In this document: one piece after another, positions 6,391-56,794 of the stretch | How the letters are laid out: every line of letters begins with the position of its first letter | How positions within the stretch are numbered: position 1 is the first letter of the stretch | Virus record (IMG/VR): IMGVR_UViG_3300029441_000005 | Span: 1-64,000 of that record | Reading direction: 5' to 3' (one strand) | Source of the DNA: a virus | DNA: 64,000 nucleotides | Translations under genes and position numbers: made by a program | Notes under the pieces: model-generated | What the model saw: the letters and a program-made list of their open reading frames with translations, nothing else | What the model was told of the DNA's origin: nothing | The model's database searches: none

Positions 6391-6400
6391 ACTCTAAAAA

Positions 6401-7101: not shown

Positions 7102-7480
7102 CCTCAGTTAACTGGTCCAGTAATTCCTCTACATCCATATCCAAGTGAACTGATGCCCCTGATACTTGTAGAGTTATTCCCGAACTGTAACTACTAGAAG
7201 ACCCATGAAGTTTTAACTCCTTTGGCCTTTCTCCGGTAGATTCGTCTCTGTAGTGAATTATACCGTTTTTGTAGTCATAGCTTTTCACCTCGGATAAATG
7301 CCTTAATTCATCCCAGTTTTTCCAGTGGGGAGTTGCATCTGGGGTAGGTGGAACGGTTTTACCATCCCACAGTATGCAGACTACGCAGAAGGCTGATACT
7401 CCTATTATCATCCTCTTTGCAGCTTCCCAAAGGGTCTTGGCCTCATCTGGTTCTCCGTCTGGTGTGTAATATCTTTTCAT
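7061..7480 (-). CDS. hypothetical membrane-anchored protein
   Basis: The start was moved from TTG 7504 to ATG 7480 (MKRYYTPDG...). One hydrophobic helix is present (MIIGVSAFCVVCILW). Confidence 0.55.
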   Translation of the reverse strand: MKRYYTPDGEPDEAKTLWEAAKRMIIGVSAFCVVCILWDGKTVPPTPDATPHWKNWDELRHLSEVKSYDYKNGIIHYRDESTGERPKELKLHGSSSSYSSGITLQVSGASVHLDMDVEELLDQLTEDADFYEYFERNMD

Positions 7481-7596
7481 AGTTTCAAATTGAATATCCA
7501 ACAAATAAAACTGAATATTAACAATATTATTGAAGCCGTACCATACAATATAAATAAGGGTTTAGCGGCTTCCCACATAGAGTCTCTCTCTTTCAT
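7477..7596 (-). CDS. small transmembrane protein (below the ORF-track length cutoff)
   Basis: 39 codons, MKERDSMWEAAKPLFILYGTASIILLIFSFICWIFNLKL. ATGA stop/start overlaps occur at both ends (7596-7593 and 7480-7477), and the ORF exactly fills an otherwise 112-nt gap. Confidence 0.45.
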   Translation of the reverse strand: MKERDSMWEAAKPLFILYGTASIILLIFSFICWIFNLKL

Positions 7597-7823
7597 AATC
7601 TTTTTCCGGCATACTTATTCCGGATTCTCTTTTCGAATGATTTACCTACTGATTCTCCATTTTGGATATCCTCTTTGAACATCCTGAAGTCGAACTCTGA
7701 TACCGAGTTGTATTGGTATACCTTTTCTCCTTTGAAGGTAATGGTGATATCTCGGGTTTCATCATCCATCACTACCTTCATAATTCGGGATGACCCCGTA
7801 ATTTCAAATGTCTTTTTCATCAT
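7593..7823 (-). CDS. KTSC-domain protein
   Basis: The stretch SSRIMKVVMDDETRDITITFKGEKVYQYNSVSEFDF...GKSFEKRIRNKY matches the KTSC pattern (S-x-I-x-x-V-x-Y-D...L-x-V-x-F-x-x-G-x-x-Y-x-Y). Confidence 0.5.
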   Translation of the reverse strand: MMKKTFEITGSSRIMKVVMDDETRDITITFKGEKVYQYNSVSEFDFRMFKEDIQNGESVGKSFEKRIRNKYAGKRL

Positions 7824-8281
7824 TACTGTCTTTTAAGCTCAAAAGTGTTAAGTCCCATAGCTACCACATTATTTTCTTTCCTGAGTGCTTGACAGGTAAA
7901 GAAAATATCCCAGAGAGTGAAGACAGAATCAGAACTCATTTCCATCAAGTCCTCTTCCATCATATAGAGTGTACTCATTATGGTATTAAACCACCTGTTA
8001 TTTAACCCCTTTACCAGCATGGTTTCAATATCTTCATACCTATTGTTAAAGGTATCTCCCTGAACCCTTTGAAAGGCAGCTATATATTCCCTGGCCATGG
8101 ATTCCACCGCTTCTAGAGAAGTCCCGTAGCAGGGGAATATAATTTTCCATTTATCTAAGCTCTTATCCTCTAAAAGGGATTCCAGCGCCTGAATATGCAC
8201 ATCCATAATCTGATTCCATATTTCCTGGGCAGATAATCGCCTTTGCAATTTCAGTTTGATACAACCTCGGTTTATTTTCAT
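7823..8281 (-). CDS. hypothetical protein
   Basis: 152-aa ORF. Confidence 0.55.
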   Translation of the reverse strand: MKINRGCIKLKLQRRLSAQEIWNQIMDVHIQALESLLEDKSLDKWKIIFPCYGTSLEAVESMAREYIAAFQRVQGDTFNNRYEDIETMLVKGLNNRWFNTIMSTLYMMEEDLMEMSSDSVFTLWDIFFTCQALRKENNVVAMGLNTFELKRQ

Positions 8282-8282
8282 T

Positions 8283-8459
8283 TTAATCCTCGTTATAGAT
8301 ATACAGAATTTGATGGTTCCTATCTAACTCCTTTTCCAAATACTCCCAATGAGTATTGTGGTCTATATGGATATTGACCCTATAATCATCCATTTCTTTG
8401 GGTAATAAATCCAGATAATCTTTCAGATCCTTTACAGTAGTGAATTTTGGTTGTCCCAT
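8283..8459 (-). CDS. hypothetical small protein (below the ORF-track cutoff)
   Basis: 58 codons, MGQPKFTTVKDLKDYLDLLPKEMDDYRVNIHIDHNTHWEYLEKELDRNHQILYIYNED. Its ATG lies 20 nt after promoter P6 and its stop lies 1 nt before the next ATG. Confidence 0.5.
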   Translation of the reverse strand: MGQPKFTTVKDLKDYLDLLPKEMDDYRVNIHIDHNTHWEYLEKELDRNHQILYIYNED

Positions 8460-8479
8460 ACTTATTTTATTTCGTTATG

Positions 8480-8511
8480 CAAATATAATAATTATTATTA
8501 TAATATGCAAA
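8480..8511 (-). promoter_or_regulatory. Bacteroidota-type promoter, early class P6
   Basis: The minus strand reads TTTGCAtattataataataattatTATATTTGcataacg, with a 20-nt spacer. Confidence 0.6.
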
Positions 8512-8544
8512 TCAATTTCAGTGGTGTTGTATAGGTTAGTTCAA

Positions 8545-8577
8545 CAAAGAACCCCGAATCTATATTAGGTTCGGGGT
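8545..8577 (-). terminator. rho-independent terminator
   Basis: 8-bp stem accccgaa/ttcggggt (8551-8577), followed on the minus strand by TCTTTGTT. It lies after the stop of ORF 8608-9150. Confidence 0.55.
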
Positions 8578-8607
8578 AAGAGGTTTCATAAACGATTGCC
8601 TATCGGG

Positions 8608-9150
8608 TTAATCCTCCTCTTTCTTTGTCTTCTTTTTCTTCTTGTCCTTGCCTTCTTTCGAAGGTTTGTCGGCCTTCTTTTCCTTGGCCGACTCTTCTTT
8701 CTTGGGAGCAGCCGCCGGAGCACCTGATGCCAACTCTGCAGCATACTTCTTGCCCTCGGCCTCGGCCTTCTCTTTGGACATGGTCTTCAGAAGAGTACGC
8801 ATCTTCTGACGGTACTTTTTCTTCTGGTCGGAGGTCATCTCCTTGCCGTCCACGGTAGGATAGTCGTAGGCATTTGGGGTACTGGTAACCTTTTCCTTCT
8901 TGGGATGGGCTTCTGGCTTCTGATTCTTTTTAGCCTTCTCTACGGCCTTCTCCTCCGTAGCTGCCCTGGCCTTTTTGTTTCCCAGGTTGATGATGTCTAC
9001 CCAAGCTTGGATTTTCTTTCCATGCTTCTTATGGCCTGTCCAATCTTTCTTGGGGTCGAGATCATTCTCTTCCATGTAGGCCAGCATTTCCTTCTGAGCC
9101 CTGCGTGCTTTCTTTGCGGCCAGGTCTTTCTTGCTGATGTCTTTTGCCAT
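8608..9150 (-). CDS. Lys-rich low-complexity protein
   Basis: 180 aa, GC-richer than its surroundings. Contains the motif YDYP...SDQKKKYRQKMR and a KKKKKTKKEED tail. Confidence 0.6.
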   Translation of the reverse strand: MAKDISKKDLAAKKARRAQKEMLAYMEENDLDPKKDWTGHKKHGKKIQAWVDIINLGNKKARAATEEKAVEKAKKNQKPEAHPKKEKVTSTPNAYDYPTVDGKEMTSDQKKKYRQKMRTLLKTMSKEKAEAEGKKYAAELASGAPAAAPKKEESAKEKKADKPSKEGKDKKKKKTKKEED

Positions 9151-9199
9151 TGTTGTTGAGTTGATTAAATAAAAACTGGTTTGAATTACCTTTGCATGT

Positions 9200-9580
9200 T
9201 TATAGTTTGGTTAAGGAGTTTTTGGTCTGTACTTCCTTTACCTCTGAGATGATTATTTCCATCCCCTGAAGATTTGCCATCAACTTAAGATGGGCAACAG
9301 CATCATCCTGAGAGATATTAGTGTATACAATTCTGTACCTTTCACCAGAATCTTTGTTTTCAAAAGTTATGGTTAAGATGTTTCCATTTGCCAAATCTTC
9401 TATGCGCTTTGCCAGAGATTTTACCTTACCTATTTTTAGGGTTTTATCCTTGATTAAAGCTTGCCTTTTACCGGGAGACAGTCCAGGCATGGATAACCTT
9501 GTATCTATATCCTGAACCATTTTGGTTAGCTCTTTAATCCGATATATCAACCCTTTGACTGAGGAGTTAAATTGTCCCAT
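9200..9580 (-). CDS. hypothetical protein
   Basis: 126-aa ORF. Confidence 0.55.
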   Translation of the reverse strand: MGQFNSSVKGLIYRIKELTKMVQDIDTRLSMPGLSPGKRQALIKDKTLKIGKVKSLAKRIEDLANGNILTITFENKDSGERYRIVYTNISQDDAVAHLKLMANLQGMEIIISEVKEVQTKNSLTKL

Positions 9581-9774
9581 TGAGGTCTTTGAATAGTGGT
9601 GTCATTTCCTATTTTCTGAGCATATTTATCAATCAATTCTTCCGTTCTAGAGATAATATACTCTGTCATCATTCTATTTTCTTCAGAGATATCTTTTTCT
9701 TCCTCTAGTAGCAGCTGATATGATTGTAGCTGATTACATAATGCCAGATATATAATGCTGTCATCGTCTTGCAT
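9547..9774 (-). CDS. hypothetical protein
   Basis: The start was moved to ATG 9774 (MQDDDSIIY...), because the first 20 track codons are the GC-rich terminator hairpin 9791-9828. Confidence 0.45.
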   Translation of the reverse strand: MQDDDSIIYLALCNQLQSYQLLLEEEKDISEENRMMTEYIISRTEELIDKYAQKIGNDTTIQRPQWDNLTPQSKG

Positions 9775-9783
9775 GGCCTTATA

Positions 9784-9830
9784 CAAAAATGGGGAGAACC
9801 CCCGGTCAGATTCCGGATGGGCCTCCCCCC
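9784..9830 (-). terminator. rho-independent terminator (GC-rich compound hairpin)
   Basis: Outer stem ggggag/ctcccc and inner stem ccgg/ccgg, followed on the minus strand by ATTTTTG. It lies after the stop of ORF 9877-10302. Confidence 0.6.
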
Positions 9831-9876
9831 GCATGACTCAAGTAATGATGTCCGAAATGGTTAGGCAGCGTCGAGC

Positions 9877-10302
9877 CTATTCCTCATCGTCTTCGTCCTC
9901 GTCATCCTCGGCATCGGCTGCCTTCCCTTTCTTACCCATGCCGGGCATCTTCGGGACCAGGGTACCGTGCTCTTTCTTGGATTTAACCGATACCCCCGGA
10001 ATGGTGGTATTCGATACGGCGATAACTTTGCCGTCCTTGTCGGTTACGACCGAGGTGATGAGAACTCCGTACTTCCGGACGTTCATAGCGAAGGTCTTTG
10101 CAACGTTGCCGCCGCCCAGGTCGATGATGTCGCACTGTTTGCTGTTCGGTCGCTGACCCGGTGCCCGGTTCTTGAGTCGTTCTTTCATCGCTTCTCGCTT
10201 GGCCTTCTTCTCTTCAGCGGTCAGTTCTTTCTTACCGCCCTTTTTCGTCAATTCCTCTTTCTTTGCAGCTTTTGCTTCTGCTGCCTTTTTCTTAGTTGCC
10301 AT
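9877..10302 (-). CDS. basic N-terminus / acidic C-terminus protein
   Basis: 141 aa, running MATKKKAAEAKAAKKEE... to ...ADAEDDEDEDDEE. The gene is markedly GC-rich. Confidence 0.6.
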   Translation of the reverse strand: MATKKKAAEAKAAKKEELTKKGGKKELTAEEKKAKREAMKERLKNRAPGQRPNSKQCDIIDLGGGNVAKTFAMNVRKYGVLITSVVTDKDGKVIAVSNTTIPGVSVKSKKEHGTLVPKMPGMGKKGKAADAEDDEDEDDEE

Positions 10303-10424
10303 GTTATATTGAATTAGATGGTTTCTTTGATAAGGGAACTCCAGGCTTATTACCCTTGCCTATGGATTTAGTTCTGGATGATTACCTGAAGCTCCCTTGG
10401 ATTTGGTTATAGTCAGAAGGACCC

Positions 10425-10928
10425 TTACTTTTTCTTTTTCTTGGTGTCCTTCTTGGAAGCGGCCTTTGCCTTAGGCAGAGTGATGCCCAGTTCCTTGGCC
10501 ACCGCCTTGCGAAGTTTCTCGACGTCTTCCTCGTCGAATTCATCGGGGTCAGTTTCGAGTTCTTTGTCGTCGCAGAGGTCTTCGAGAGCTTCGAAGTCCA
10601 TCCCGGCCAGATCCTCTGGTGTCACCTCGTCGTCTTCATCTTCGTCCTCGTCGGAATCTTCGTCTTCATCTTCGTCCTCGTCGGAATCTTCGTCTTTGTC
10701 GTCATCGGAATCTTCGTCTTCATCTTCGTCCTCGTCGGAATCTTCGTCCTCGTCGGAATCTTCGTCCTCGTCGGAATCCTCAGATTCCCCGCCGAAGATT
10801 TCCTCGGCGTCTTCTGCCGAGATGGGAGTCAGGAGTGCATAGGAGCCGTCATCGTATTTGATGAGAATTACCCCGTTAGAAAGAACCTTACGTTCTACCT
10901 CTTTTGCTGCAGCTTTTTTCTTTGCCAT
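10425..10928 (-). CDS. hyper-acidic repeat protein with basic termini
   Basis: 167 aa with a central run of about 55 aa of SDEDED-type repeats, and basic termini (MAKKKAAAKE... and ...KKDTKKKKK). The gene is GC-rich. Confidence 0.6.
   Translation of the reverse strand: MAKKKAAAKEVERKVLSNGVILIKYDDGSYALLTPISAEDAEEIFGGESEDSDEDEDSDEDEDSDEDEDEDEDSDDDKDEDSDEDEDEDEDSDEDEDEDDEVTPEDLAGMDFEALEDLCDDKELETDPDEFDEEDVEKLRKAVAKELGITLPKAKAASKKDTKKKKK
10627..10788 (-). repeat. in-frame tandem repeats (18/24/30-nt units) encoding (S)DEDED tracts
   Basis: The plus strand shows tcttcgtcttcatcttcgtcctcgtcggaa three times (the first copy imperfect), a 24-nt variant, and tcttcgtcctcgtcggaa twice, all head to tail. 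Confidence 0.8.
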
Positions 10929-10969
10929 AATTGAATTGATTAAAAGGTGTTTAAAAAATGTTTGATTGA

Positions 10970-11230
10970 TTATAGTTTCGTGATAAACTTTTGAGTATAT
11001 ATCTCTCTGTTTTCTTGGACTGCCATAGCTTTCAAGAATACATTTTTATCCCTGATAGCTTCTACTTTTTGAGTGAACTCATTCTGGTTTTTTACTTCAA
11101 AAGGTTCACCTTCCTGAGTGTATGTATCATCTACTGCATTATCATTTTCGGTATAATACCTTTTGACCCCCACTATGAGTTTTACTCCATCCCATGGGTT
11201 TTCTGGTTCCCTTTTATTTACTACCGTCAT
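10970..11230 (-). CDS. hypothetical protein
   Basis: 86-aa ORF. Confidence 0.5.
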   Translation of the reverse strand: MTVVNKREPENPWDGVKLIVGVKRYYTENDNAVDDTYTQEGEPFEVKNQNEFTQKVEAIRDKNVFLKAMAVQENREIYTQKFITKL

Positions 11231-11769
11231 TTTGCATAACCATTTTTATATGCTGTATAATAGATTCTTGTATATCCTTCCTGTCCTATCCCTGAAAAAG
11301 CTTCACTTATATATCTGTAGCCTTTTTTATTTGCTCGATAATCATGAGCAAAGTGTTCAGGATAGATATAGTGTTCTCCGCATACCTTTTGGTTAGTCAT
11401 TATATAAGCATACCATCCAGTTTTAGTTTTCATCCTGAACTGAGATATTGGTACAAATCCCTGAATTAATAGTTCTTTGAGAATAAACTTCTGTTCAAGT
11501 CTTCTCCTCACCATAGGCATCCCACCCAATCTTCTTAGTACTGCCTTTTGATATTCTGACCAATGTCTTTTAGTCCATTTTATGGAACTGATAACAGAAC
11601 GTTTAGTTATAGCCTTATATGCTAATGCCACTTTTAATTGGTCCCAAGTTAAGTCACTCTTCTTCGTAAAGAGCCTTCTTTCTTTTGGACTCAATCTCTT
11701 TAGCCTTCGATAGCTTAATAAGCTTTTCCGGAATAGGCTTGAGAACAGTTCTATATTCTTTTGTTCCAT
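11227..11769 (-). CDS. basic Tyr/Arg-rich protein
   Basis: 180-aa ORF. Its first 38 codons overlap the upstream gene in another frame, so the start is uncertain. Confidence 0.4.
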   Translation of the reverse strand: MEQKNIELFSSLFRKSLLSYRRLKRLSPKERRLFTKKSDLTWDQLKVALAYKAITKRSVISSIKWTKRHWSEYQKAVLRRLGGMPMVRRRLEQKFILKELLIQGFVPISQFRMKTKTGWYAYIMTNQKVCGEHYIYPEHFAHDYRANKKGYRYISEAFSGIGQEGYTRIYYTAYKNGYAK

Positions 11770-12481
11770 AATTAAACTTATCTACCAAGTTCAAAAAGTA
11801 CTTTTCTTTCTGTTGAGATCCGAGTCTCTTTTTCCGAGCAATTCTTTTCCCTAATTCCCTCTGGGCTGAAGACTTCGAGTTTCGGTATACTTCGGTTAAC
11901 AGTATCTTAGATATTGGCTTCTTCCTTTTCCCAGCAATAAGTAGAGATTGACCTATAACAAACTTCTTCTCTAATGCCGTTTTTCCTTTTATCCAGTGTA
12001 CGGCTTTCAGATTCTCCCTGCCATAATAGGTTAAAAACCTTTTTCTAGCGGCCTTCAATGAATAGAATCCCTGTAATACTACTGCTGGTTCTCCCTTGTA
12101 GTTATAAGACCACGGATACCATTTATGAAGGTAAATCTTGATGTCCCTTTCTTTGATAACCTTTCCAAATCTTCTATGATATTCTCTCCTCCTCTTCTTT
12201 TCCAAGAAATATGCCCTTACATCGGGGGGTAAAGAATCCGGGTCTACTACCCCGTTAATTCTGGTAGCTTCTTTTAGACATTCCCTGTATCTATCCAGAA
12301 AGCGTTTATTCCTTTCCCTATATTTATGAACCTTGATTTTCCCGCAGAGTACTTTCCTTTGCCACTCTTGCTTCATCTTTCGGTTCAATTTTATAACCTG
12401 AGGTGGTACCCATGGAATTCCTAATCTGTAACAGGATTCCTCGAAGTCATCTGCATTTTTAAACCTATAGACTCGTGGCAT
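11654..12481 (-). CDS. basic Arg/Lys/Tyr-rich protein
   Basis: 275-aa ORF. Confidence 0.55.
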   Translation of the reverse strand: MPRVYRFKNADDFEESCYRLGIPWVPPQVIKLNRKMKQEWQRKVLCGKIKVHKYRERNKRFLDRYRECLKEATRINGVVDPDSLPPDVRAYFLEKKRRREYHRRFGKVIKERDIKIYLHKWYPWSYNYKGEPAVVLQGFYSLKAARKRFLTYYGRENLKAVHWIKGKTALEKKFVIGQSLLIAGKRKKPISKILLTEVYRNSKSSAQRELGKRIARKKRLGSQQKEKYFLNLVDKFNYGTKEYRTVLKPIPEKLIKLSKAKEIESKRKKALYEEE

Positions 12482-12487
12482 ATATCT

Positions 12488-13054
12488 CTACTCCTTCTTT
12501 TGTTTACGAAGTGCTGCCCGATACCACTGTTGAATGGATTTCTCTTTGGCATCCGGGAATCTCTTTTGCACTCTCCGAGTAATTCGGTCGATTGATAACC
12601 CTTTATAGGTTAATTCAAATACGTAGGATTTCTTAGTTCCTTTCCAAAGACCATTGTCATCCTTCTCTTTCTTTGGTTTTTTGGGTTTCTCCAACCCCTT
12701 TACCCGTTTGGTCTTTTTCTGTTTAGTGACCGCATCCTCACCTATGAACCCAAGGTTAAGTTGATAATTCCTCATTGGGTCATCTTTGGGATATCCAGCA
12801 AGCTCTAATTGCTGGTCCATCCACTTATCGTATTCATCGATGAGAGCATTATCCGGCTTATTATCCGAATGATGAATCCACGATGCCAGTCCATTGTAGT
12901 CGGCTGAACAAGCATCGGGGAAAGGCATGCCCAGAGCAACTGCTCTTCTCTTCATGTCCTTGTAGGTCATATTTTCTAACCCACTTCCCATGACCTTTAG
13001 CTTCTCCTTGTTGAGCTTTAACGGTCTTTTGTCCTTTTTCTTACTTTTGCGCAT
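12488..13054 (-). CDS. hypothetical basic protein
   Basis: 188-aa ORF, the first gene after promoter P7. Confidence 0.55.
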   Translation of the reverse strand: MRKSKKKDKRPLKLNKEKLKVMGSGLENMTYKDMKRRAVALGMPFPDACSADYNGLASWIHHSDNKPDNALIDEYDKWMDQQLELAGYPKDDPMRNYQLNLGFIGEDAVTKQKKTKRVKGLEKPKKPKKEKDDNGLWKGTKKSYVFELTYKGLSIDRITRRVQKRFPDAKEKSIQQWYRAALRKQKKE

Positions 13055-13094
13055 ATTTATATAGGTATAAAATTATTTTTCTTATTTCGTTATA

Positions 13095-13125
13095 CAAATA
13101 TAATTAAATTTCTCGAAGTTGCAAA
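13095..13125 (-). promoter_or_regulatory. Bacteroidota-type promoter, early class P7
   Basis: The minus strand reads TTTGCAacttcgagaaatttaatTATATTTGtataacg, with a 19-nt spacer. Confidence 0.6.
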
Positions 13126-13142
13126 ATAATTATATAAAAATT

Positions 13143-25462: not shown

Positions 25463-25480
25463 AAGAATTATAAAATCATG

Positions 25481-25563
25481 TACTCGGAGCGGGAATCGAA
25501 CCCGCAAGGTCAATGACCGTCAGAGCTTAAATCTGATGAGTTTACCTATTTCTCCATCCGAGC
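25481..25563 (-). tRNA. tRNA-Leu (anticodon UAA), type II with long variable arm
   Basis: The minus strand reads GCTCGGA-TG-...-TCAGA-TTTAAGC-TCTGA-CGGTCATTGACCTTG-GCGGG-TTCGATT-CCCGC-TCCGAGT-A. No CCA is encoded. Confidence 0.85.
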
Positions 25564-25569
25564 AATAAA

Positions 25570-25593
25570 AATGAGGAGTTATCAGTACTCCTC
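25570..25593 (-). terminator. hairpin plus T-run inside the tRNA cluster
   Basis: 7-bp stem gaggagt/actcctc with a 7-nt loop, followed on the minus strand by ATTTTTATT. It lies immediately 5' of tRNA-Leu. Confidence 0.4.
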
Positions 25594-25774
25594 TAAACTG
25601 GCCGCTGACAAGATATTACCTCTAGAAAGATATCTCACCATTACAGTATCAATTAAGCATCTTATACTTTATACTTATTTAGGTGTTTTTCCTAAAGGGA
25701 GATACTTACCTTTAGTAATATGATTGATCAGTTCATATTCTCACCCAAATATACCATCTGCTTTTCAATGGTAG

Positions 25775-25849
25775 TACGGAAGACAGGATTCGAACCTGCG
25801 ACCCCTTGCTCCCAAAGCAAGTACACTAACCGGACTGTGCTACTTCCGT
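25775..25849 (-). tRNA. tRNA-Pro (anticodon UGG)
   Basis: The minus strand reads ACGGAAG-TA-GCAC-AGTCCGGTTA-GTGT-A-CTTGC-TTTGGGA-GCAAG-GGGTC-GCAGG-TTCGAAT-CCTGT-CTTCCGT-A. Confidence 0.85.
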
Positions 25850-25938
25850 AAATTAGGTACCAGTCTATATCCCTACCGTCCAGTACCTGGGAATGAATCA
25901 GGACTCGTTGTCCACAGCGCAAAATAAAGATTCATTAG

Positions 25939-26012
<74 letters not shown>

Positions 26013-30519: not shown

Positions 30520-30921
30520 TTATTTACTGTTGAATTTACGATAAATGTCTCTTGCTTCCTTTCGGGATAACTCGAACTTACTCTGAAGCTTATCGAGTAT
30601 TTCCTTCTTACCCAGTTTTTCTCTTACCAATTTACGGTAGTACTTTTTACAACCTTCTATATCTACCAAAGGTTCCAAATCCTTGAACTGGGTTTCTGCT
30701 TCCAGCTCTTTACGAGTCTTACCCATAAGAGCTGTGAACTTAATACAACAGAGTTCGGAATCTCCGCACATCTTACATTCCTTGGTTGAAAGGTCATAGT
30801 GTTTACCGAAACATGGATCTTGTCCTGAACCAAGTTTGGTGATGTCTATAGGTTCAAGAATATCCCCAGTCTCTAACTCCTTTCTTACTTCCTTAAGTTT
30901 GTCTTTCTTTTTCTTCGCCAT
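30520..30921 (-). CDS. Cys-rich hypothetical protein
   Basis: 133 aa with a CFGKHYDLSTKECKMCGDSELCC cluster. Confidence 0.55.
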   Translation of the reverse strand: MAKKKKDKLKEVRKELETGDILEPIDITKLGSGQDPCFGKHYDLSTKECKMCGDSELCCIKFTALMGKTRKELEAETQFKDLEPLVDIEGCKKYYRKLVREKLGKKEILDKLQSKFELSRKEARDIYRKFNSK

Positions 30922-30928
30922 ATATTTG
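30898..30928 (+). promoter_or_regulatory. plus-strand promoter-like box pointing into the palindromic intergenic region
   Basis: The plus strand reads TTTGtctttctttttcttcgccaTATATTTGatag, with a 19-nt spacer. It lies inside the 5' end of the minus-strand gene 30520-30921, and no plus-strand ORF lies downstream. Confidence 0.4.
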
Positions 30929-31082
30929 ATAGTTTGATATCAAGTGATAGTTAATAGGTATTTCAGTGTCATTGATGTAGAATAGTATATGCACTAACTT
31001 TCTGGTTCACCCTTATACGTGCGTGCGTATTTATATTTAAGCTTTAGCTTAAGTTAATACTTACTAAGTAAGTTAAGTATAA

Positions 31083-31108
31083 GTTTATATAGCTTTAGCT
31101 ATATAAAC
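31083..31108. repeat. inverted repeat, 12-bp arms with a 2-nt spacer
   Basis: The sequence is gtttatatagct-tt-agctatataaac. The core agctttagct also occurs at 31040-31049, inside ttaagct-tt-agcttaa. Confidence 0.85.
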
Positions 31109-31144
31109 CTCTATTAGTATTTAGTATACTAAATACTAATAGAG
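31109..31144. repeat. perfect 36-bp palindrome
   Basis: ctctattagtatttagta|tactaaatactaatagag; every position was checked for complementarity. Confidence 0.9.
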
Positions 31145-31181
31145 TTATAAGTGTGGGTATATACGTGCGCATATATGCGTA

Positions 31182-32612
31182 TTACCCTTCCACTCTGATT
31201 ACCTTTAATTTTTCTTTCTGATAATACATTCGTCTATGGTTACCATGTCTCTTTAGATAATTACCCGGGAATTGAAGATCGTCAAGATAGGCTTTTTTCT
31301 TGTTCATGTGAGTTCGTGCAAGACGTCCCAATATCTGTATGGATTTTTCATTAGAATCCATTGATGCAGTATTCTGCAGATATTTTAATTCAGGGAAGTT
31401 TTGACCTCTAGAAATAATCGTGGTAGCTATTAGTATATCGATTTTACCTTCTCTAAAAGCTTGTAGAATTTCATCACGCCCTTTGGTATTATGATGTACA
31501 TATTGTATGTTGTATTGATTCCCGAGATGTTTAACATAATACCGGTAAAGATTTTCACAATGACCTATAAACTTACATACTATCAAAGCTGGTAATCTCT
31601 TTCTACCAATGTTATACTTGGTACGATCAAGGGATAGTTTCCAAGCTTTAACATTATCTGATATCACTTCCTTGTATTCTGTTGAGTAATCCACATCTTT
31701 AGAGTACTTAAAGGGAGCATATACCAACTTGCAAGTAATAGGGGTAGAATACCCTTTCTCTATCATATCACTTAATTTTATCTGGTTAACCTTATCACCA
31801 ATAAATGACATGATATTCAGGTTATGTATTAACTTCTTCTTCTGATTACTCATGTAGATGGTACCACTCAAACCTACTCGTATTCTAGAGTTATACAGAT
31901 GTTGTATTACTGTTTTATATGTTTTATTATCTATCACGTCAGCCTCATCTATAAGTACCATATCTATTTCTGATAAGAATTTTTGGTACCTACTTATATT
32001 TGAGGCAAGAGACTGTACCATGCACACATTAAAGTTACCCCAGTCATTGCACTTACTTCCCTGTATGAATGCAACCTTTTCACCGGGTAACAGTTCTGGA
32101 ATCTCTTTTTTGAACTGCTTAAATAAGTCTGCACTGTTCAACAACAATACAGTTTTCAATTTCCTCTTGAAAGCCTGGTGTAATCCACAGAACACCAAAG
32201 TCTTTCCGAAATTAACTGCCAAATCAGATGCACAGATAAGAAAAGGAGTATCTCCAACTCGATTATTTAGAATCTTTTCTAGAGCTTCTTTTTGTACTTC
32301 CCGTAATTCTTTATCTCCAAGTATTGTTGGAATTACTGGTTTAACTCCTAACTGGGGTCTATTATCTATGATTTTAACCTCCTGTCCCGTTTTAAGGCAT
32401 TCATTGTAAACCCTATTTAGAAGACCTATTTTGAATTGCCCATAATCAGAGATATATTTTACGTAACCATCCCAGTTCTTTGCCCTGCTATACATCATTA
32501 TATGCCAAGCGTCCGGATGCTTAATCCGGAACATTTCATACAACTTATTTGTGAACTTAGCAGGGCCAGATAATTCACAAACATTGCAATTCTTTATGGT
32601 TATAGTTATCAT
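31182..32612 (-). CDS. SF2 DNA helicase (DEAD/ResIII-type)
   Basis: LREVQKEAL (Q/I region), NFGKT (Walker A), LIDEAD (motif II), SGT (motif III) and the helicase-C motif ILIATTIISRGQNFPEL. Confidence 0.8.
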   Translation of the reverse strand: MITITIKNCNVCELSGPAKFTNKLYEMFRIKHPDAWHIMMYSRAKNWDGYVKYISDYGQFKIGLLNRVYNECLKTGQEVKIIDNRPQLGVKPVIPTILGDKELREVQKEALEKILNNRVGDTPFLICASDLAVNFGKTLVFCGLHQAFKRKLKTVLLLNSADLFKQFKKEIPELLPGEKVAFIQGSKCNDWGNFNVCMVQSLASNISRYQKFLSEIDMVLIDEADVIDNKTYKTVIQHLYNSRIRVGLSGTIYMSNQKKKLIHNLNIMSFIGDKVNQIKLSDMIEKGYSTPITCKLVYAPFKYSKDVDYSTEYKEVISDNVKAWKLSLDRTKYNIGRKRLPALIVCKFIGHCENLYRYYVKHLGNQYNIQYVHHNTKGRDEILQAFREGKIDILIATTIISRGQNFPELKYLQNTASMDSNEKSIQILGRLARTHMNKKKAYLDDLQFPGNYLKRHGNHRRMYYQKEKLKVIRVEG

Positions 32613-32615: not shown

Positions 32616-33452
32616 TTATTTCTTGAAAGCATCCCAATCTACATGTTCCGATTTAGGCCGAGATACTATATTAAATCTTGCCATATAATTAATAACTCTT
32701 TGTCTAGCCTTGTCATTAGATAGATCTTCTATCTTAGGTATACCATTACAGAATTCTAAAGCATAGAACTGAGCTTGAACAAAGGTTTCATAGTCAACTC
32801 CAACTTCATCGGCTAATTTTCTTGCTCTTACAAACCATACATACTCTTGAGGGTTTTTATCGTAAGTATTGTTAATCCCTATTCTGTCAAGAATCTCTTT
32901 AGTATAATATTCATATATTTCTCGGGTATACTGGGGAGCTGAATCTTCTTTTACTTCTCTATCTGCTTCGTATACATCCATAATCCAATTAACTCTCTGA
33001 TGTAACCAATTAGCACAGAAGTTATAGTTAACCCTCTTTGCTTGAGACATGAGCTTAATACCAGTTGTTACAAACTCAATATATCCTTGACGAGGTTCAA
33101 ACCCAAACTTTTGACAGAACTCGTTTACAACAGGTACTAATTCTTTTACTGATGCCCATTGTAAATCTGTTTGCTTTATTTTAGTTACTCCGATGTGTTT
33201 GAGTTGGACTCTAGTAGAATAGATGATATCTGCTAATAAGTTTGCATCTCCTATACTTCCTGAAGCTCTACGAACAGCTTGAGTTTGTACCCTTTTATCA
33301 TCTCCTACCACTGAACGATGGTCCAAAGAGTATTGCCTGGCTTTAGTGAAGAACTCATCTACGAATTCTTCAGATACTCTACCCCCCATTTCCTTCCATA
33401 ATTTACGGAATAAAGTTTTAGAGATATGTATAGAAGGTTCTCGTTGTGCCAT
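32616..33452 (-). CDS. hypothetical protein in the replication operon
   Basis: 278-aa ORF between the helicase and primase genes. Confidence 0.55.
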   Translation of the reverse strand: MAQREPSIHISKTLFRKLWKEMGGRVSEEFVDEFFTKARQYSLDHRSVVGDDKRVQTQAVRRASGSIGDANLLADIIYSTRVQLKHIGVTKIKQTDLQWASVKELVPVVNEFCQKFGFEPRQGYIEFVTTGIKLMSQAKRVNYNFCANWLHQRVNWIMDVYEADREVKEDSAPQYTREIYEYYTKEILDRIGINNTYDKNPQEYVWFVRARKLADEVGVDYETFVQAQFYALEFCNGIPKIEDLSNDKARQRVINYMARFNIVSRPKSEHVDWDAFKK

Positions 33453-34405
33453 TATAATTTTAACTGTGATTTTATAGTTAAAAGTTCTTGATAAGTCTGA
33501 TATGTCGTCTCTCGTACATATTCTAAAGTCCTCTGTTTACCCAGTGAATTGACATCCTCATTATCTGGGAGGAATACTACCTTTACCTTTTTGAAGGGCA
33601 CCAACTTAAATGCCAGGTCCAATGCCTTATCTTTAGCATCAGGGTCAATCAGTATGATGAACTTCTCTACCGGACTCTTGATGAACTTGTTTACTTGATA
33701 TCTGCTGACTGCCTTACCTCCGGTTGCAATCCCATTCTCTCCCAAAGTTTCAGCATTGATTGCACCCTCACAAATATAAATGGTTCGGTATATTTCTAGA
33801 GCATCTGCATTATATATAATAAAACTCTTTCCCAAACCAGTTACATCTACTTCTGGATTGTTATATTTGGGGCCAGCGCCCATATATAATCGGGCATTGA
33901 AGTAAGTTAATTGCCCATGCTCTGTAAAAGGAATAATGATATATCCAAGATACTTACCTGTATTACAATATCCCCATCCTTTACGAGCTAACTCCTCTAT
34001 CTTAAATCCTCGTTTCTTAAGATAATTCCTGGCAGACCTTGCCAATAGAGAAGTACCCATGGATATATTCTTAAAGCCATCAGGAAGGAAGAACTCTTTC
34101 TTACCCTTTAACTCAACCTTCTCTTCTTTGAATACATATCCAGAATAATCTCCCGATTCGAGTATAGATAATACTTCTTGAAAACTATCAGTACTCTCTA
34201 GATACATTACCAGACTTAAGGGAGATGGATGCTCACCACACTTAAAACAATTACATCGATTGTTTGAAAGATTAATGCCAAACTTCTTTTCTCCTCCACA
34301 GTAGGGACAGTCTGACTTCATCCATGAATTGCGGTAGTCGAAGGCTCCGATCTTCTTAATGAAGTACTGGTGCATCTTACCTTTTATATTGCTGTTAAGT
34401 CTCAT
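33452..34405 (-). CDS. DnaG-like primase (zinc finger + TOPRIM)
   Basis: Zinc finger CPYCGGEKKFG...CNCFKCGEH. TOPRIM motifs ICEGAINAETL and ILIDPDAKDKA. Confidence 0.8.
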   Translation of the reverse strand: MRLNSNIKGKMHQYFIKKIGAFDYRNSWMKSDCPYCGGEKKFGINLSNNRCNCFKCGEHPSPLSLVMYLESTDSFQEVLSILESGDYSGYVFKEEKVELKGKKEFFLPDGFKNISMGTSLLARSARNYLKKRGFKIEELARKGWGYCNTGKYLGYIIIPFTEHGQLTYFNARLYMGAGPKYNNPEVDVTGLGKSFIIYNADALEIYRTIYICEGAINAETLGENGIATGGKAVSRYQVNKFIKSPVEKFIILIDPDAKDKALDLAFKLVPFKKVKVVFLPDNEDVNSLGKQRTLEYVRETTYQTYQELLTIKSQLKL

Positions 34406-35046: not shown

Positions 35047-36513
35047 CTAAATATCACCTGAGGTTTTACTTCTCTTTTCTGGGTCTGCGTTGGGATTACT
35101 TACCCTTTTCTTTTTCTTAAGTAAATCATCTACCTGTTTACCCATGGACTCATCATATTTTGCTCTGGCCTCTTTAGAGAACTCCTTCATACGTTGTCTT
35201 TCTGGGTCCATATTAAACATTACTCTACCAGATGGAACTCCATCACGTTGAACTACAACTTCCATTCTCATGATGTTATGTTCTTCTTCGTCCTGAGTAG
35301 AATTTAATCCCATGACGCATTTTGCATTTCTTATTATAGAAATAGCTGATGCTATATCATTATCCTCGTATCGGGTTTCTTGATGCTTAGCACCTTCTCT
35401 AGTAACATGTTGGGCAGTCCAAATAGCATCTAGTCCCAACTCATCTCCCATATTATCTATATCTATATATACATTGTTGATACGTTCTACATCGTCCCTA
35501 TCTCGAGCAATAGAAGCCAACTTTGCAGCATAGTCAATCATGATAACATTGACCTTAATACCCTTCTCTGTTTCTAATTTCCTAACTAGATTAGTGATGG
35601 TATTACAATCTGCAATGGTTGCAGGTACACGCTCCACAATAAACTCTACACCAAGACGTTTATATTTACGCATGTGCCTTTGCTCCATCTTATCATAATC
35701 ACCAGTTAACATCTCCCTCTTGGTCTTATTGAGAGTAGACTGTATCATACGATCCATTAACTGGTTCTTACCATTTTCAGTATCTATGTATAGAACATTC
35801 TTCTTCATTGCCAGATATCCCCGGGCAATATTGATAAGTGCAAATGTCTTTCTCCGTTTAGGGCGATCAATCAAAACGAAAAGAGAATTCTTGGGATATC
35901 CATCTCCATTACCCAACCTATTCAACTGCCAAAATGGAGTAGGAACTACATCTGGGTCAACCTTTCTCATGAGTTGTCTCATTGCAGTTCCACTAACCAT
36001 AAGCAAAGGCTCGTCTTTCTTTTGTGGTTTTGAATTTTGTAATATTTTGGTTAACTTAACCTGATAAGTTTCATAGGAATTGTAATCCGAAAAATCCATA
36101 CCTTCATTCAAAGCTTTCAACTCAATGTAGGCAATGAATTTATGTATATTTTCCAGGACAATATCTACATCTTTTAGGGGTTTATTGTAAAGCTCAGATA
36201 TTAAACTATGAATATTAGGAATATCATCTTTAGTAACCAAATCAACATAATCCTTACCTTCTAGCAAGGTTTTAACTTGCTCTACCATTAAAACCTCACT
36301 TGGTATTCGTTGGTATTTCTTTACGAATTTTACCAAGGCTTCTACTACTATCGAGTGTTCAATTAAAGTAAAGTACCCAGGTTTTATCTTTGGAATATAT
36401 AGAAGAGCTTCCTTCCCTTGTACCAAGAACCTAAGTACTTCTAGTTGAAACTCTATAGAGAACGTAAACTTATCACAGGAGTTTAACCTCTTCTTTACCT
36501 TATTTGGTTTCAT
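35047..36513 (-). CDS. DnaB-like replicative helicase (RecA-fold C-terminal domain)
   Basis: VLIDRPKRRKTFALINIARGY...YIDTENG, Walker B VIMIDYAAKL, and TAQHVTREG...DIASAISIIRNA...VVVQRDG follow the order of the DnaB C-domain. The Walker A motif is atypical. Confidence 0.6.
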   Translation of the reverse strand: MKPNKVKKRLNSCDKFTFSIEFQLEVLRFLVQGKEALLYIPKIKPGYFTLIEHSIVVEALVKFVKKYQRIPSEVLMVEQVKTLLEGKDYVDLVTKDDIPNIHSLISELYNKPLKDVDIVLENIHKFIAYIELKALNEGMDFSDYNSYETYQVKLTKILQNSKPQKKDEPLLMVSGTAMRQLMRKVDPDVVPTPFWQLNRLGNGDGYPKNSLFVLIDRPKRRKTFALINIARGYLAMKKNVLYIDTENGKNQLMDRMIQSTLNKTKREMLTGDYDKMEQRHMRKYKRLGVEFIVERVPATIADCNTITNLVRKLETEKGIKVNVIMIDYAAKLASIARDRDDVERINNVYIDIDNMGDELGLDAIWTAQHVTREGAKHQETRYEDNDIASAISIIRNAKCVMGLNSTQDEEEHNIMRMEVVVQRDGVPSGRVMFNMDPERQRMKEFSKEARAKYDESMGKQVDDLLKKKKRVSNPNADPEKRSKTSGDI

Positions 36514-36652
36514 ATATTATATAATATTCATGAGTGTATAATCAATAGTATCTGCTAGATAATATAGTTCTCCAAGCTCATTCTCGAACATACTTGAACA
36601 CTAACGGTGAAATATTTTGATAAAAATTCATACAAGTTGTTACTTTATTATT

Positions 36653-36660
36653 TATATTTG
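36653..36660 (+). promoter_or_regulatory. -7 box TATATTTG of the early promoter class, upstream of the only plus-strand gene
   Basis: The plus strand reads ttTATATTTGcattg, 23 nt before ATG 36684. No good TTTG lies at -33. Confidence 0.45.
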
Positions 36661-36683
36661 CATTGTTAAATATATTTACTACT

Positions 36684-37331
36684 ATGAAAGGCAATAACGG
36701 GAGTGAACTACATCGTTTGACAGAATTAAAACCCTATGATGAGGACTTGTTTAATAGGTTATACAAAACCTGCAAACCTTTAATCCGTAGACTGGTAAGA
36801 GGGGTTGATTCTAGAAGATTCAATCTTACGCCAGATATAATTAACTCTTTCTTCTGGGATAAGTTCTTGTATGTATTTAATAAATATCAAGACGAATACG
36901 ATGAAGAAAGGTTGAAAGCAACTCTCTTATCTTCCCTGCAAACTTATAAAAGTAAGTTGTTAAGAAATGCTTATACTAAGCAGGCAGAATTCAATCAAGA
37001 GTTAACATCATTCGAGGTATTATTTGACAATAATAAAGAATTACTCGATGACTCGGATGAAACTCGGATTAAGGAAGAGCAATCCCAAATATTTCATCAA
37101 TACATGAAGGAACACCTTACTCCGGATGAATACTTGGTTATGCAGATACAACTTGAACCTCCCAAGTGGTTTGAATCTCGTATCAAAGATTCTCACGGTA
37201 AGTTATCTATCCTTCACCTGATAGATTACTTTGAGTTGCCTAGAGATAAGTTTGCAGTTAATATGTTCTCCAGAATGAGAAAGACCATACAGAAAACTTT
37301 AGAACAAGCTGCAGTAGATCTTAAACAATGA
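36684..37331 (+). CDS. sigma-70-family (ECF-like) sigma factor candidate
   Basis: Region-2-like FNRLYKTCKPLIRRLV...DIINSFFWDKFLYVF...KSKLLRNAYTK. Region-4-like LTPDEYLVMQIQ...LSILHLIDYFELPRDKFAVNMFSRMRKTIQKTL. The start was moved from TTG 36663 to ATG 36684. Confidence 0.45.
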   Translation: MKGNNGSELHRLTELKPYDEDLFNRLYKTCKPLIRRLVRGVDSRRFNLTPDIINSFFWDKFLYVFNKYQDEYDEERLKATLLSSLQTYKSKLLRNAYTKQAEFNQELTSFEVLFDNNKELLDDSDETRIKEEQSQIFHQYMKEHLTPDEYLVMQIQLEPPKWFESRIKDSHGKLSILHLIDYFELPRDKFAVNMFSRMRKTIQKTLEQAAVDLKQ

Positions 37332-37371
37332 AAAAGGCCAGAGCAAGGTTATTGATAACCTCACTCCGGCC
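37331..37371. terminator. convergent terminator hairpin between the sigma-like gene and the end of the late operon
   Basis: Imperfect long hairpin with ggcc...aggtta-ttga-taacct...ggcc (37336-37371). An A5 run on the plus side gives T5 after the stem on the minus strand. Confidence 0.55.
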
Positions 37372-37400
37372 CCACTTAACCAACTCAACTATGGTTCAGT

Positions 37401-56727: not shown

Positions 56728-56751
56728 ACGTTAGTTATTAAATTTAGCGAT

Positions 56752-56777: not shown

Positions 56778-56794
56778 ACCAAGACTCCTTAGCC

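What the first reader, a model, noticed from the sequence alone, without database searches (positions are those of the whole stretch)
31011..31182. Palindrome-dense AT-rich intergenic block upstream of the helicase-primase operon: candidate origin of replication
The 260-nt gap 30922-31181 is the largest ORF-free gap seen in the window. It contains a perfect 36-bp palindrome (31109-31144). Directly abutting that is a 12-bp-arm inverted repeat (31083-31108). A third dyad, ttaagct-tt-agcttaa, shares the core agctttagct. Further elements are acttac-taa-gtaagt and the 12-bp palindrome cgcatatatgcg. The whole block is bracketed by direct repeats, TATACGTGCG...GCGTATT (31014-31030 and 31160-31182), which stand out as GC-rich boxes in AT-rich DNA. 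The location next to the SF2 helicase, primase and DnaB-like genes fits an origin or another protein-binding hub.
Basis: partly seen in the sequence, partly recalled or inferred. Interest (0 to 1): 0.65.

Follow-up and report, generated by a model that had tools for sequence, protein, structure and literature searches.

The report
Hairpin-rich, easily melted phage intergenic block
A 260-base non-coding gap in the replication gene cluster of an uncultured Bacteroides-type gut phage holds the genome's longest perfect palindromes in its most easily melted DNA; related phages keep this design with different sequences, so it is a real DNA-level element and a plausible but unproven replication origin.

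Summary
The dyads and repeats are real, at the stated coordinates, and far beyond chance. The two longest perfect palindromes (36 bp and 26 bp) and the two longest alternating purine-pyrimidine tracts in the 64 kb all lie within 170 bp. That stretch is also the least stable 100-150 bp of duplex in the window.

Two side statements are wrong. All genes are on the minus strand, so the block lies downstream of the DnaB-primase-helicase cluster and upstream of a 133-aa gene and a dUTPase gene. It is also not the largest gap.

About 200 loci from uncultured gut phages were fetched (many are the same contigs fetched twice). Most lineages keep a hairpin array at this position while its sequence turns over. 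Arms change by compensated substitutions and indels, and a two-hairpin module keeps a CTAAAG centre. Among 300 stem pairs there is no G·T wobble. The block lacks the phage's own promoter and terminator types.

I read it as a DNA-level unwinding and hairpin element, most likely a replication origin or replisome entry site (confidence 0.4). No direct origin signal exists: skew is uninformative, no initiator was found, and some relatives lack the block. RNA-level and regulatory readings remain open.

The parts
30922..31010 (-). Conserved proximal block directly upstream of the 133-aa gene: a promoter or leader, or a protein-binding region. It contains a near-invariant core (30969-30999 on the minus strand, AGTTAGTGCATATACTATTCTACATCAATGA) and the family-wide motif GAAAWACCTATTA (30952-30964).
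   Evidence: It is almost invariant in 40 distinct relatives, even where the palindrome block is replaced. The motif is kept in lineages with only 57-62% helicase identity. It is unique in the window. No conserved RNA structure was found. There is no canonical Bacteroidetes promoter on this strand.
31014..31030 (.). Promoter-proximal GC box, TATACGTGCGTGCGTAT: a 17-nt perfect alternating purine-pyrimidine (Z-DNA-prone) tract. Its family consensus on the gene strand is AATGCGYAC.
   Evidence: It is the second-longest alternating tract in the window. An equivalent tract of 16-19 nt sits at the same position in L066, L067, L068 and L111. In the L071 lineage a mirror-repeat polypyrimidine tract takes its place.
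31037..31052 (-).
   Evidence: Homologous hairpins in 8 lineages have 7 different arm sequences. All keep the two loop-proximal pairs (T·A invariant; C·G in 7 of 8, with L172 G·C), and 7 of 8 keep centre AA.
31059..31073 (-). Hairpin HpA, ACTTACT-A-AGTAAGT. It sits inside a run of TAAGT/TAAGC short repeats.
   Evidence: A 6-8 bp hairpin occupies this position in 8 lineages with covarying arms. TAAGT occurs 5 times in 31050-31084.
31083..31108 (.). Palindrome P2: 12-bp arms, 2-nt centre.
   Evidence: It is the second-longest perfect palindrome in the window. The centre reads AA on the gene strand in 47 loci and TT in 1. Contigs L014 and L046 end at its centre.
31109..31144 (.). Palindrome P1: a perfect 36-bp palindrome directly abutting P2.
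   Evidence: It is the longest palindrome in the window, and its homolog is the longest in the 75.5-kb relative MT121964. In MT121964 both arms carry a compensated 1-nt insertion. Variants with odd centres ATA and TAT exist. Contig L022 ends 7 nt past its centre.
31155..31187 (.). Helicase-proximal GC box. It is a 26-nt alternating purine-pyrimidine tract (31157-31182) that includes CGCATATATGCG. It sits inside an imperfect 33-nt dyad that overlaps the helicase stop codon.
   Evidence: It is the longest alternating tract in the window. The single-strand fold pairs GGGTA...TACCC. The homologous box is the longest such tract in MT121964.
31182..32612 (-). UvsW/XPB-like SF2 helicase gene. Its stop codon abuts the block.
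   Evidence: Pfam ResIII and Helicase_C, PHROG DNA helicase. PDB sequence matches to T4 UvsW (2oca, E 5.7e-6) and XPB.
30520..30921 (-). 133-aa Lys-rich protein with a Cys cluster, function unknown. It is the first gene downstream of the block.
   Evidence: Translation. No Pfam or PDB match. It follows the gap in most of the distant lineages whose gene order was read; small ORFs intervene in L069, L072 and L188.

Best explanation
The block is a DNA-level structural element, not a coding region or an ordinary terminator-promoter pair. It is an AT-rich, easily melted core of perfect palindromes, able to extrude as hairpins or cruciforms, flanked by Z-DNA-prone alternating purine-pyrimidine boxes. 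It lies between the two halves of a T4-like replication gene set.

My preferred mechanism (inferred): it is the phage's replication origin, or one of them, or a replisome entry site. Negative supercoiling would open the core. One source of that supercoiling is transcription leaving the conserved promoter-like block toward the 133-aa gene, as gidA transcription is thought to do at E. coli oriC. The gene-strand hairpins, with their conserved C-TAAA-G loops, would then hold the region open and give DnaB and primase a single-stranded entry or priming site.

Shown: the anatomy, its uniqueness in the genome, its physical properties, and conservation of structure rather than sequence.

Inferred: opening, hairpin extrusion in vivo, replisome loading, and any origin activity.
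For: 1. The extremes coincide. The two longest perfect palindromes, the two longest alternating Pu/Py tracts and the least stable 100-150 bp of duplex in 64 kb all fall in 31014-31187. In the 75.5-kb relative MT121964 the palindrome and tract extremes also hold genome-wide, and the block ranks third in instability at 100 bp.
2. It is single-copy. Its motifs occur nowhere else in the window, apart from one extra copy of AGCTTTAGCT at 6569.
3. It sits inside a T4-like replication module: DnaB, primase, UvsW-like helicase, then dUTPase, thymidylate synthase, PolA, SSB, UvsX-like recombinase and SbcCD-like nuclease.
4. Structure is conserved, sequence is not. Lineages with 57-91% helicase identity keep a post-helicase gap with hairpin arrays of different sequence. 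The L071 lineage again has two directly abutting long perfect palindromes (15-bp and 12-bp arms) of unrelated sequence.
5. Symmetry is maintained. There is a compensated indel in P1, and one compensated pair change in palindrome X and three in palindrome Y between L071 and L084-L093. HpA and HpB arms covary.
6. The signature is DNA-type, not RNA-type. Among 24 distinct stems with 300 Watson-Crick pairs there are 8 internal mismatches and none is G·T. Other non-B DNA motifs occupy the same slots in relatives: a mirror-repeat polypyrimidine tract and G6-ATTATA-G6.
7. It is unlike the phage's ordinary signals. Other gaps carry canonical TTTG...TAnnTTTG promoters and GC-stem plus T-tract terminators. 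This gap has neither on the gene strand.
8. There is precedent. T4 oriF and oriG are about 100 bp, share no sequence motifs, and need only a promoter plus a replaceable AT-rich unwinding element (PMC3016281).
Against: - No replication signal is available. Cumulative GC skew runs straight through the block.
- GC skew at 4-fold sites shows no change point. The AT-skew change point is unresolved between 30 and 36.5 kb.
- In MT121964 the detrended skew minima map to about 36.3-36.6 kb in window coordinates. That is the divergent region upstream of DnaB, which is a rival origin site.
- No initiator protein or iteron array was identified.
- Relatives L073 (35-nt gap), L069, L072, L095 and L182 lack strong palindromes at this position. 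An essential origin would then have to lie elsewhere in those phages.
- The loop centre is strand-biased: AA on the gene strand in nearly all independent hairpins. This also fits an RNA-level role.
- Perfect palindromes can be kept perfect by templated mutation, without selection for a function.
Confidence: 0.4

Rival explanations
1. It is an RNA-level operon boundary. The hairpins form in the sense transcript at the end of the DnaB-primase-helicase message. There they act as factor-dependent or unconventional terminators, as 3'-end stabilisers or RNase III-type processing sites, or as protein-binding hairpins like lambda boxB. The conserved proximal block is the promoter and leader of the next operon.
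For: - The position fits: the array starts immediately after a stop codon at the end of a tightly packed gene cluster and is followed by a conserved, unstructured A-rich leader.
- HpA and HpB have covarying stems with a conserved loop and conserved closing pairs, as in protein-bound RNA hairpins.
- The centre reads AA on the sense strand in nearly all independent hairpins, so one strand matters.
- The terminator scan flagged P1 on the minus strand.
Against: - There is no G·U-type wobble in 300 stem pairs.
- The stems are AT-rich, perfect and up to 18-19 bp, with no U-tract. This differs from the phage's own GC-stem plus T-tract terminators.
- The alternating Pu/Py boxes, the mirror-repeat polypyrimidine tract and the G-runs have no obvious RNA meaning.
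- No Rfam family matches.
Confidence: 0.27
2. It is a transcriptional control module for the downstream nucleotide-metabolism operon. The GC boxes (consensus AATGCGYAC) and the paired CCYTAWT-type repeats in the proximal block bind a phage regulator. The palindromes and Z-prone tracts make the unusual promoter sensitive to supercoiling.
For: - The proximal block and the GC-box consensus are the most sequence-conserved parts of the gap.
- There is no host-type promoter on the gene strand, so a special promoter is needed or read-through is used.
- The block is unique in the genome.
Against: - In the hairpins the arms vary and the centres are conserved. This is the reverse of dimeric operator sites.
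- The spacing between the GC box and the conserved motif varies from about 20 to 60 nt between lineages.
- No regulator was identified.
- Long perfect palindromes are not needed for operator function.
Confidence: 0.13
3. It is a programmed break or recombination hotspot. Hairpins formed at the palindromes are cut by the phage SbcCD-like nuclease. The ends are then used by the UvsX-like recombinase to start recombination-dependent replication.
For: - The phage encodes SbcC-like, SbcD-like and UvsX-like proteins and an exonuclease.
- Centre flips (AA/TT, A/T, ATA/TAT) among near-identical genomes are what strand switching at physically formed DNA hairpins would produce.
- Local duplications occur in L011 and L021.
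- Three contigs end within 7 nt of a palindrome centre, and six of 63 end in or immediately next to the gap.
- New ORFs are inserted at this junction in L069, L072 and L188.
Against: - Contig ends at palindrome centres are also what assemblers produce.
- 26-38 bp palindromes are short for efficient SbcCD cleavage (my own knowledge, not tested).
- This reading does not explain the conserved loops or the GC boxes.
Confidence: 0.1
4. It has no dedicated function. The gap is a plastic module junction where AT-rich palindromes arise and are kept perfect by quasi-palindrome templated mutation.
For: - Sequence turnover is high, and some lineages lack palindromes.
- The centre flips are what such strand switching would produce.
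Against: - The same architecture recurs in lineages at 57-62% helicase identity: abutting long palindromes, then HpA, HpB, the GC box and the conserved motif.
- The loop and closing pairs are conserved with a strand bias.
- The structural extremes coincide in one 170-bp stretch.
Confidence: 0.1

Closest known systems
Bacteriophage T4 oriF/oriG (R-loop origins: promoter plus AT-rich downstream unwinding element)
   Same: Both are small, non-coding and AT-rich, and are defined by ease of unwinding rather than by sequence. Both belong to a phage with a T4-like replication and recombination gene set that includes a UvsW-like helicase. T4 origins share no sequence motif and their unwinding element is replaceable (PMC3016281).
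   Different: Here no conserved promoter fires into the AT-rich core. The conserved promoter-like block points away from it. The only canonical promoter that points into it (plus strand, 30898-30928) is not conserved in relatives. T4 origins are not built from long perfect palindromes.
Herpes simplex virus oriS/oriL (AT-rich perfect palindrome flanked by GC-containing recognition boxes)
   Same: Both have a long perfect AT-rich palindrome bracketed by short GC-containing boxes, within a cluster of replication genes. In HSV the origin forms a hairpin when unwound (my own knowledge).
   Different: The boxes here are direct repeats, not inverted. The neighbouring SF2 helicase resembles UvsW/XPB, not the origin-binding UL9. 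There are four to five separate dyads rather than one. There is no sequence similarity.
Single-strand initiation signals (G4 and M13 complementary-strand origins, plasmid sso/ssi)
   Same: Both are arrays of adjacent hairpins on one DNA strand, with structure conserved and loops important. Here the strand bias of the loop centre and the covarying stems fit this type.
   Different: Those signals act on single-stranded replicons or on rolling-circle intermediates. No HUH Rep or rolling-circle gene was seen in this double-stranded DNA phage. Recognition by primase or RNA polymerase was not tested.
Lambda nut boxB-type RNA hairpins and T7 RNase III sites
   Same: Both are short hairpins with a conserved loop and covarying stems, in intergenic positions on the sense strand.
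   Different: No G·U pairs are present. The stems are perfect and much longer (P1, P2). DNA-structure motifs flank them. No upstream promoter context was shown and no N-like protein was identified.
PeSL-type promoter/stem-loop cassettes of T4-like phages
   Same: Both combine a stem-loop and a promoter at junctions where novel ORFs are inserted. This phage has such canonical cassettes at 0.7-13.1 kb.
   Different: The block is single-copy. It has no canonical promoter on the gene strand and no GC-stem plus T-tract hairpin.

Membership tests
T4 oriF/oriG-type R-loop origin | A promoter that fires into the element | tested here: inconclusive
   One canonical TTTG-N19-TATATTTG match lies on the plus strand at 30898-30928 and points into the block. 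About 2.5 such matches are expected by chance in the window. It is lost in MT121964 (TATATTCG), in variant C and in distant lineages.
T4 oriF/oriG-type R-loop origin | An AT-rich DNA unwinding element | tested here: met
   31027-31176 is the least stable 100-bp and 150-bp duplex in the window. The core 31031-31156 is 22% GC against 40% for the window.
T4 oriF/oriG-type R-loop origin | Persistent R-loop and origin activity on a plasmid during infection | not testable with these tools
   This needs a cultured phage and host. No cultured relative is present in the phage collection.
Iteron/initiator origins (lambda, plasmid type) | An array of three or more direct repeats of 12-22 bp next to an AT-rich region, with an initiator gene nearby | tested here: not met
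   Only two-copy direct repeats of 8-10 nt are present (TATACGTGCG, TGCGTATT, AGCTTTAGCT), plus short TAAGT runs. No initiator family was found in neighbouring proteins.
Origin supported by compositional skew | A strand-composition inflection at the site | tested here: not met
   Cumulative GC skew is monotonic through 31 kb. GC skew at 4-fold sites shows no change point, and the AT change point is unresolved between 30 and 36.5 kb. The detrended minima in MT121964 map to about 36.3-36.6 kb in the window. All genes are co-oriented, so skew is a weak test here.
Intrinsic (Rho-independent) terminator | A GC-rich stem followed by a T/U tract on the transcribed strand | tested here: not met
   The stems are AT-rich and no T-tract follows them. 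The scan's single hit (P1) has the tail GTTTATATAG. The phage's real terminators elsewhere are GC-rich with T-runs.
Structured RNA family (Rfam) | A match to a curated covariance model | tested here: not met
   Only sub-threshold microRNA-hairpin matches were found (15-21 bits against gathering scores of 72-160).
Protelomerase telomere-resolution site / genome terminus | A long palindrome that is the physical genome end, with a protelomerase gene | tested here: not met
   Fifty-seven of 63 contigs read through the site, and the helicase sits at arbitrary positions in contigs of about 77-79 kb. No recombinase-like family was found among the 20 proteins scanned. The contigs that end at palindrome centres can be explained by assembly.
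Mobile element (MITE-like insertion) | Terminal inverted repeats inside a target-site duplication, in multiple copies | tested here: not met
   The 10-nt direct repeats are not followed by inverted termini (read). The element is single-copy.

The most novel reading that the evidence does not exclude
A widespread family of uncultured Bacteroides-type gut phages (it fits the published description of 'Flandersviridae') has an origin defined by structure rather than sequence. Supercoil-driven or R-loop-driven opening of a palindrome core exposes gene-strand DNA hairpins with a conserved C-TAAA-G loop, and these act as the loading or priming signal for the phage DnaB-primase pair. Alternatively, the hairpins are cut by the phage SbcCD-like nuclease to seed recombination-dependent replication. 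Interchangeable non-B DNA modules (Z-prone tracts, mirror-repeat tracts, G-runs) would tune the opening.
Probability: 0.12. Interest if true: 0.75.

Novelty: new variant of a known kind. Interest (0 to 1): 0.5.

Why it matters
Nothing is known about how these abundant, uncultured gut phages start DNA replication or switch between gene classes. This block is the one clearly singular non-coding element in the genome, and its design is conserved across a large family.

If it is the origin, it would give:
- a handle for building replicons and reporters for Bacteroides phages;
- a reference point for reading coverage-based activity measures in metagenomes;
- an example of an origin specified by DNA structure rather than by sequence.

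There is also a practical point. The palindromes break assemblies: six of 63 contigs end in or immediately next to the gap, three of them within 7 nt of a palindrome centre. This matters for judging the completeness of viral genomes.

Tried and rejected
- Hidden gene: only meaningless ORFs of 22-33 aa overlap the gap.
- Known RNA: no Rfam match. No conserved RNA fold in the proximal 65 nt across 10 lineages.
- Repeated promoter or dispersed repeat: the conserved core, GAAAAACCTATTA, TATACGTGCG and CTATTAG are unique to the gap or not enriched elsewhere. A broad k-mer scan gave only noise.
- Genome terminus or protelomerase site: rejected (see the membership test).
- MITE with target-site duplication: rejected.
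- Neighbouring 278-aa protein as initiator: no Pfam, PHROG or PDB sequence match. The AlphaFold model is confident (pLDDT 85.5, all-helical), but the best PDB fold match has E = 0.35. Fourteen of the top 50 weak hits are sigma factors and one is the lambda P loader; none is significant.
- 133-aa protein: no match.
- Skew: uninformative for this site.
- Comparison with the DnaB-upstream region in MT121964: I chose the wrong coordinates and the alignment was meaningless.
- Mosaic or breakpoint profile across the gap: my coordinate extraction was wrong and the result is unusable.
- Literature: no paper on replication or transcription of this phage group was found. One search was too broad to be useful.
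- Cultured relatives: none in the phage collection.
Full report
**1. What is there**

Every ORF of 90 aa or more that looks like a gene is on the minus strand. Read 5' to 3' on that strand, the neighbourhood is:
- DnaB-like helicase, 35047-36513
- a 118-aa ORF
- primase, 33452-34405
- a 278-aa protein of unknown function, 32616-33452
- an SF2 helicase, 31182-32612
- the 260-nt gap, 30922-31181
- a 133-aa Lys-rich and Cys-rich protein, 30520-30921
- a dUTPase and a second pyrophosphohydrolase

Further on lie a thymidylate synthase, three tRNAs, PolA, SSB, a UvsX-like recombinase, an exonuclease, and SbcD-like and SbcC-like proteins. The helicase is closest to T4 UvsW and to XPB among solved structures.

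The block is therefore downstream of the DnaB-primase-helicase cluster, not upstream of it. It lies between two halves of a T4-like replication gene set.

**2. The observation**

They are not chance:
- The 18-bp-arm and 12-bp-arm palindromes are the two longest perfect palindromes in the 64 kb. Shuffled windows reach arms of 9.8 on average and 12 at most.
- The single strand folds into an array of about six hairpins with z = -7.7.

- The two 'GC boxes' are the two longest perfect alternating purine-pyrimidine tracts in the window: 26 nt at 31157-31182 and 17 nt at 31014-31030, with the next longest at 14 nt. Such tracts are Z-DNA-prone.
- By nearest-neighbour energies, 31027-31176 is the least stable 100-bp and 150-bp duplex in the whole window.

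In the 75.5-kb relative MT121964 the homologous palindrome is the longest in the genome. The homologous boxes are its two longest alternating tracts, and the block ranks third in instability at 100 bp.

The gap is not the largest one: 36514-37400 and 2504-2825 are longer.

**3. Comparison with the phage's ordinary signals**

Other gaps carry textbook Bacteroidetes promoters (TTTGCA...TATATTTG). There are seven of them, all on the minus strand between 0.7 and 13.1 kb. The same gaps carry GC-stem plus T-tract terminators. This points to a Bacteroidota host.

The gene order is structural block, then DnaB, primase and PolA, then a long run of unknown small ORFs. Genome size is about 77-80 kb. Both fit the published description of 'Flandersviridae' (PMC8008677). 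I did not test that assignment phylogenetically.

The 31-kb gap has neither signal type on the gene strand. Its motifs are single-copy.

**4. Relatives**

About 200 loci were fetched from uncultured gut phages, many of them the same contigs fetched more than once.

Among close relatives (helicase 88-100% identical):
- The 90 nt next to the 133-aa gene are almost invariant.
- The palindrome block exists in at least three forms (A, B, C) with different dyads.

In lineages at 57-83% helicase identity:
- A post-helicase gap of 160-370 nt persists.
- It usually holds a two-hairpin module (HpA, HpB), a GC-rich alternating tract with consensus AATGCGYAC, and the motif GAAAAACCTATTA about 20-40 nt (up to 57 nt in L111) before the next gene.
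- The L071/L084 lineage again has two directly abutting long perfect palindromes (15-bp and 12-bp arms) of unrelated sequence. A mirror-repeat polypyrimidine tract stands where the alternating tract would be.
- Variant C and L067 have G6-ATTATA-G6.

Five lineages (L069, L072, L073, L095, L182) lack strong palindromes, and in L073 the gap is only 35 nt.

**5. Evidence that symmetry itself is maintained**

- P1 carries a 1-nt insertion in both arms in MT121964.
- Between L071 and L084-L093, palindrome X changed one pair and palindrome Y three pairs, all compensated.
- HpB has seven arm sequences in eight lineages. The two loop-proximal pairs are kept (T·A in all eight, C·G in seven), and the centre is AA in seven of eight.
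- Asymmetric centres occur in both orientations among near-identical genomes:
  - P2: AA 47, TT 1
  - Y: AA 10, TT 1
  - HpA: AA 12, TT 1
  - X: A 6, T 5
  - P1 odd centres: ATA 3, TAT 1

  I read these flips as strand switching at DNA hairpins. That is an inference. The strong AA excess on the gene strand shows that one strand matters.
- Among 24 distinct stems with 300 Watson-Crick pairs there are eight internal mismatches, and none is G·T. RNA structures under selection normally accumulate G·U pairs. This statement rests on my own knowledge.

**6. Interpretation**

The structural extremes coincide, and different non-B DNA motifs substitute for one another at the same slots. Wobble pairs are absent, and the block differs from the phage's own terminators. 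Together these point to a DNA-level element.

Its position in a T4-like replication module and its minimal duplex stability make an origin or replisome entry site the best single reading. T4 origins offer a precedent: they are about 100 bp, share no motif, and need only a promoter plus a replaceable unwinding element (PMC3016281). I put this reading at 0.4.

The weaknesses are real:
- Skew gives nothing at this site. If anything it points to the divergent region upstream of DnaB at about 36.5 kb.
- No initiator was found. The 278-aa protein is a confident all-helical model with no significant fold match.
- Some relatives lack the block.
- The strand-biased, conserved loops fit an RNA role equally well.

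The rivals are an RNA-level operon boundary (0.27), a promoter-control module (0.13), an SbcCD/UvsX break site (0.10) and neutral palindrome turnover (0.10).

**7. Assembly note**

Six of 63 contigs end in or immediately next to this 260-nt gap. L046, L014 and L022 end at -1, +3 and +7 nt from a palindrome centre. By my own estimate, about 0.4 contig ends would be expected here by chance. This is most simply an assembler effect of perfect palindromes, but real breaks cannot be excluded.

**8. Verdict**

The origin label is plausible but unproven, and the stated gene orientation was wrong. It is a new variant of a known kind of element, a structured AT-rich intergenic block in a phage replication module, and of moderate interest.

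Noticed in passing
window 30898-30928 (+): A perfect match to the Bacteroidetes promoter consensus (TTTG-N19-TATATTTG) lies on the plus strand. It overlaps the start codon of the 133-aa gene and points into the palindrome block, antisense to every gene. The seven other matches in the window are all on the minus strand at 0.7-13.1 kb. It is not conserved in MT121964, in variant C or in distant lineages.
   Followed up: partly
window 36514-37400: This is the longest stretch without a minus-strand ORF of 90 aa or more. It holds the only convincing plus-strand ORF (36663-37331, 222 aa, no family match) and an AT-rich divergent region just upstream of DnaB (36514-36680). In MT121964 the detrended cumulative GC and AT skew minima map to about here, so it is a rival origin site.
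   Followed up: partly
window 680-13130 (-): Seven near-identical canonical promoters (TTTGCA...TATATTTG) are paired with GC-stem plus T-tract terminators between small unknown ORFs. The arrangement resembles the promoter/stem-loop cassettes of T4-like phages.
   Followed up: partly
window 25480-26012 (-): Three tRNA genes (Leu-TAA, Pro-TGG, Met-CAT) lie between the DNA polymerase gene and the thymidylate synthase gene.
   Followed up: yes
L014, L022, L046 (ends); also L035, L039, L042: Public viral contigs end inside or immediately next to the gap. Three of them end within 7 nt of the centre of P1 or P2. This is either an assembly effect of perfect palindromes or real DNA ends.
   Followed up: partly
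L071 4471-4823; L084-L093 gaps: In a lineage with 57% helicase identity, a mirror-repeat polypyrimidine tract (T6CT4CT7-GGTAC-T7CT4CT6, triplex-prone) replaces the alternating purine-pyrimidine box. CAGGCYA-type short repeats precede the palindromes.
   Followed up: no
L039, L054, L067 gaps: Variant C of the block begins with G6-7-ATTATA-G6 directly after the helicase stop codon.
   Followed up: no
MT121964.1 5718-5795: A second palindrome cluster (14-bp arms with a 5-nt spacer, and 13-bp arms with an 8-nt spacer) lies directly after the annotated DNA cytosine methyltransferase gene of the relative. I did not check whether it has a counterpart in the window.
   Followed up: no
window 32616-33452 (-): The 278-aa protein between the primase and the helicase is conserved across the family. 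It is confidently predicted as all-helical and has no significant fold match. Fourteen of the top 50 weak structural hits are RNA polymerase sigma factors.
   Followed up: partly
L068 944-2002; L070 562-1683: Some lineages carry a Sigma54-activator-type AAA+ ATPase gene two genes upstream of the helicase, immediately before the 278-aa homolog.
   Followed up: no
window 30922-31010 and-65 sequences: In most lineages the conserved proximal block contains two similar 10-nt elements (ACCCTAATTGA and AACCTATTAWC) about 18-20 nt apart. They could be a tandem protein-binding site.
   Followed up: no
window 56751-56778: TATAGATGGG-ATATCCCA-CCCATCTATA has 10-bp arms. It is the third-longest perfect inverted repeat in the window and lies at or just inside the start of a structural-region ORF (56731-57006).
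   Followed up: no
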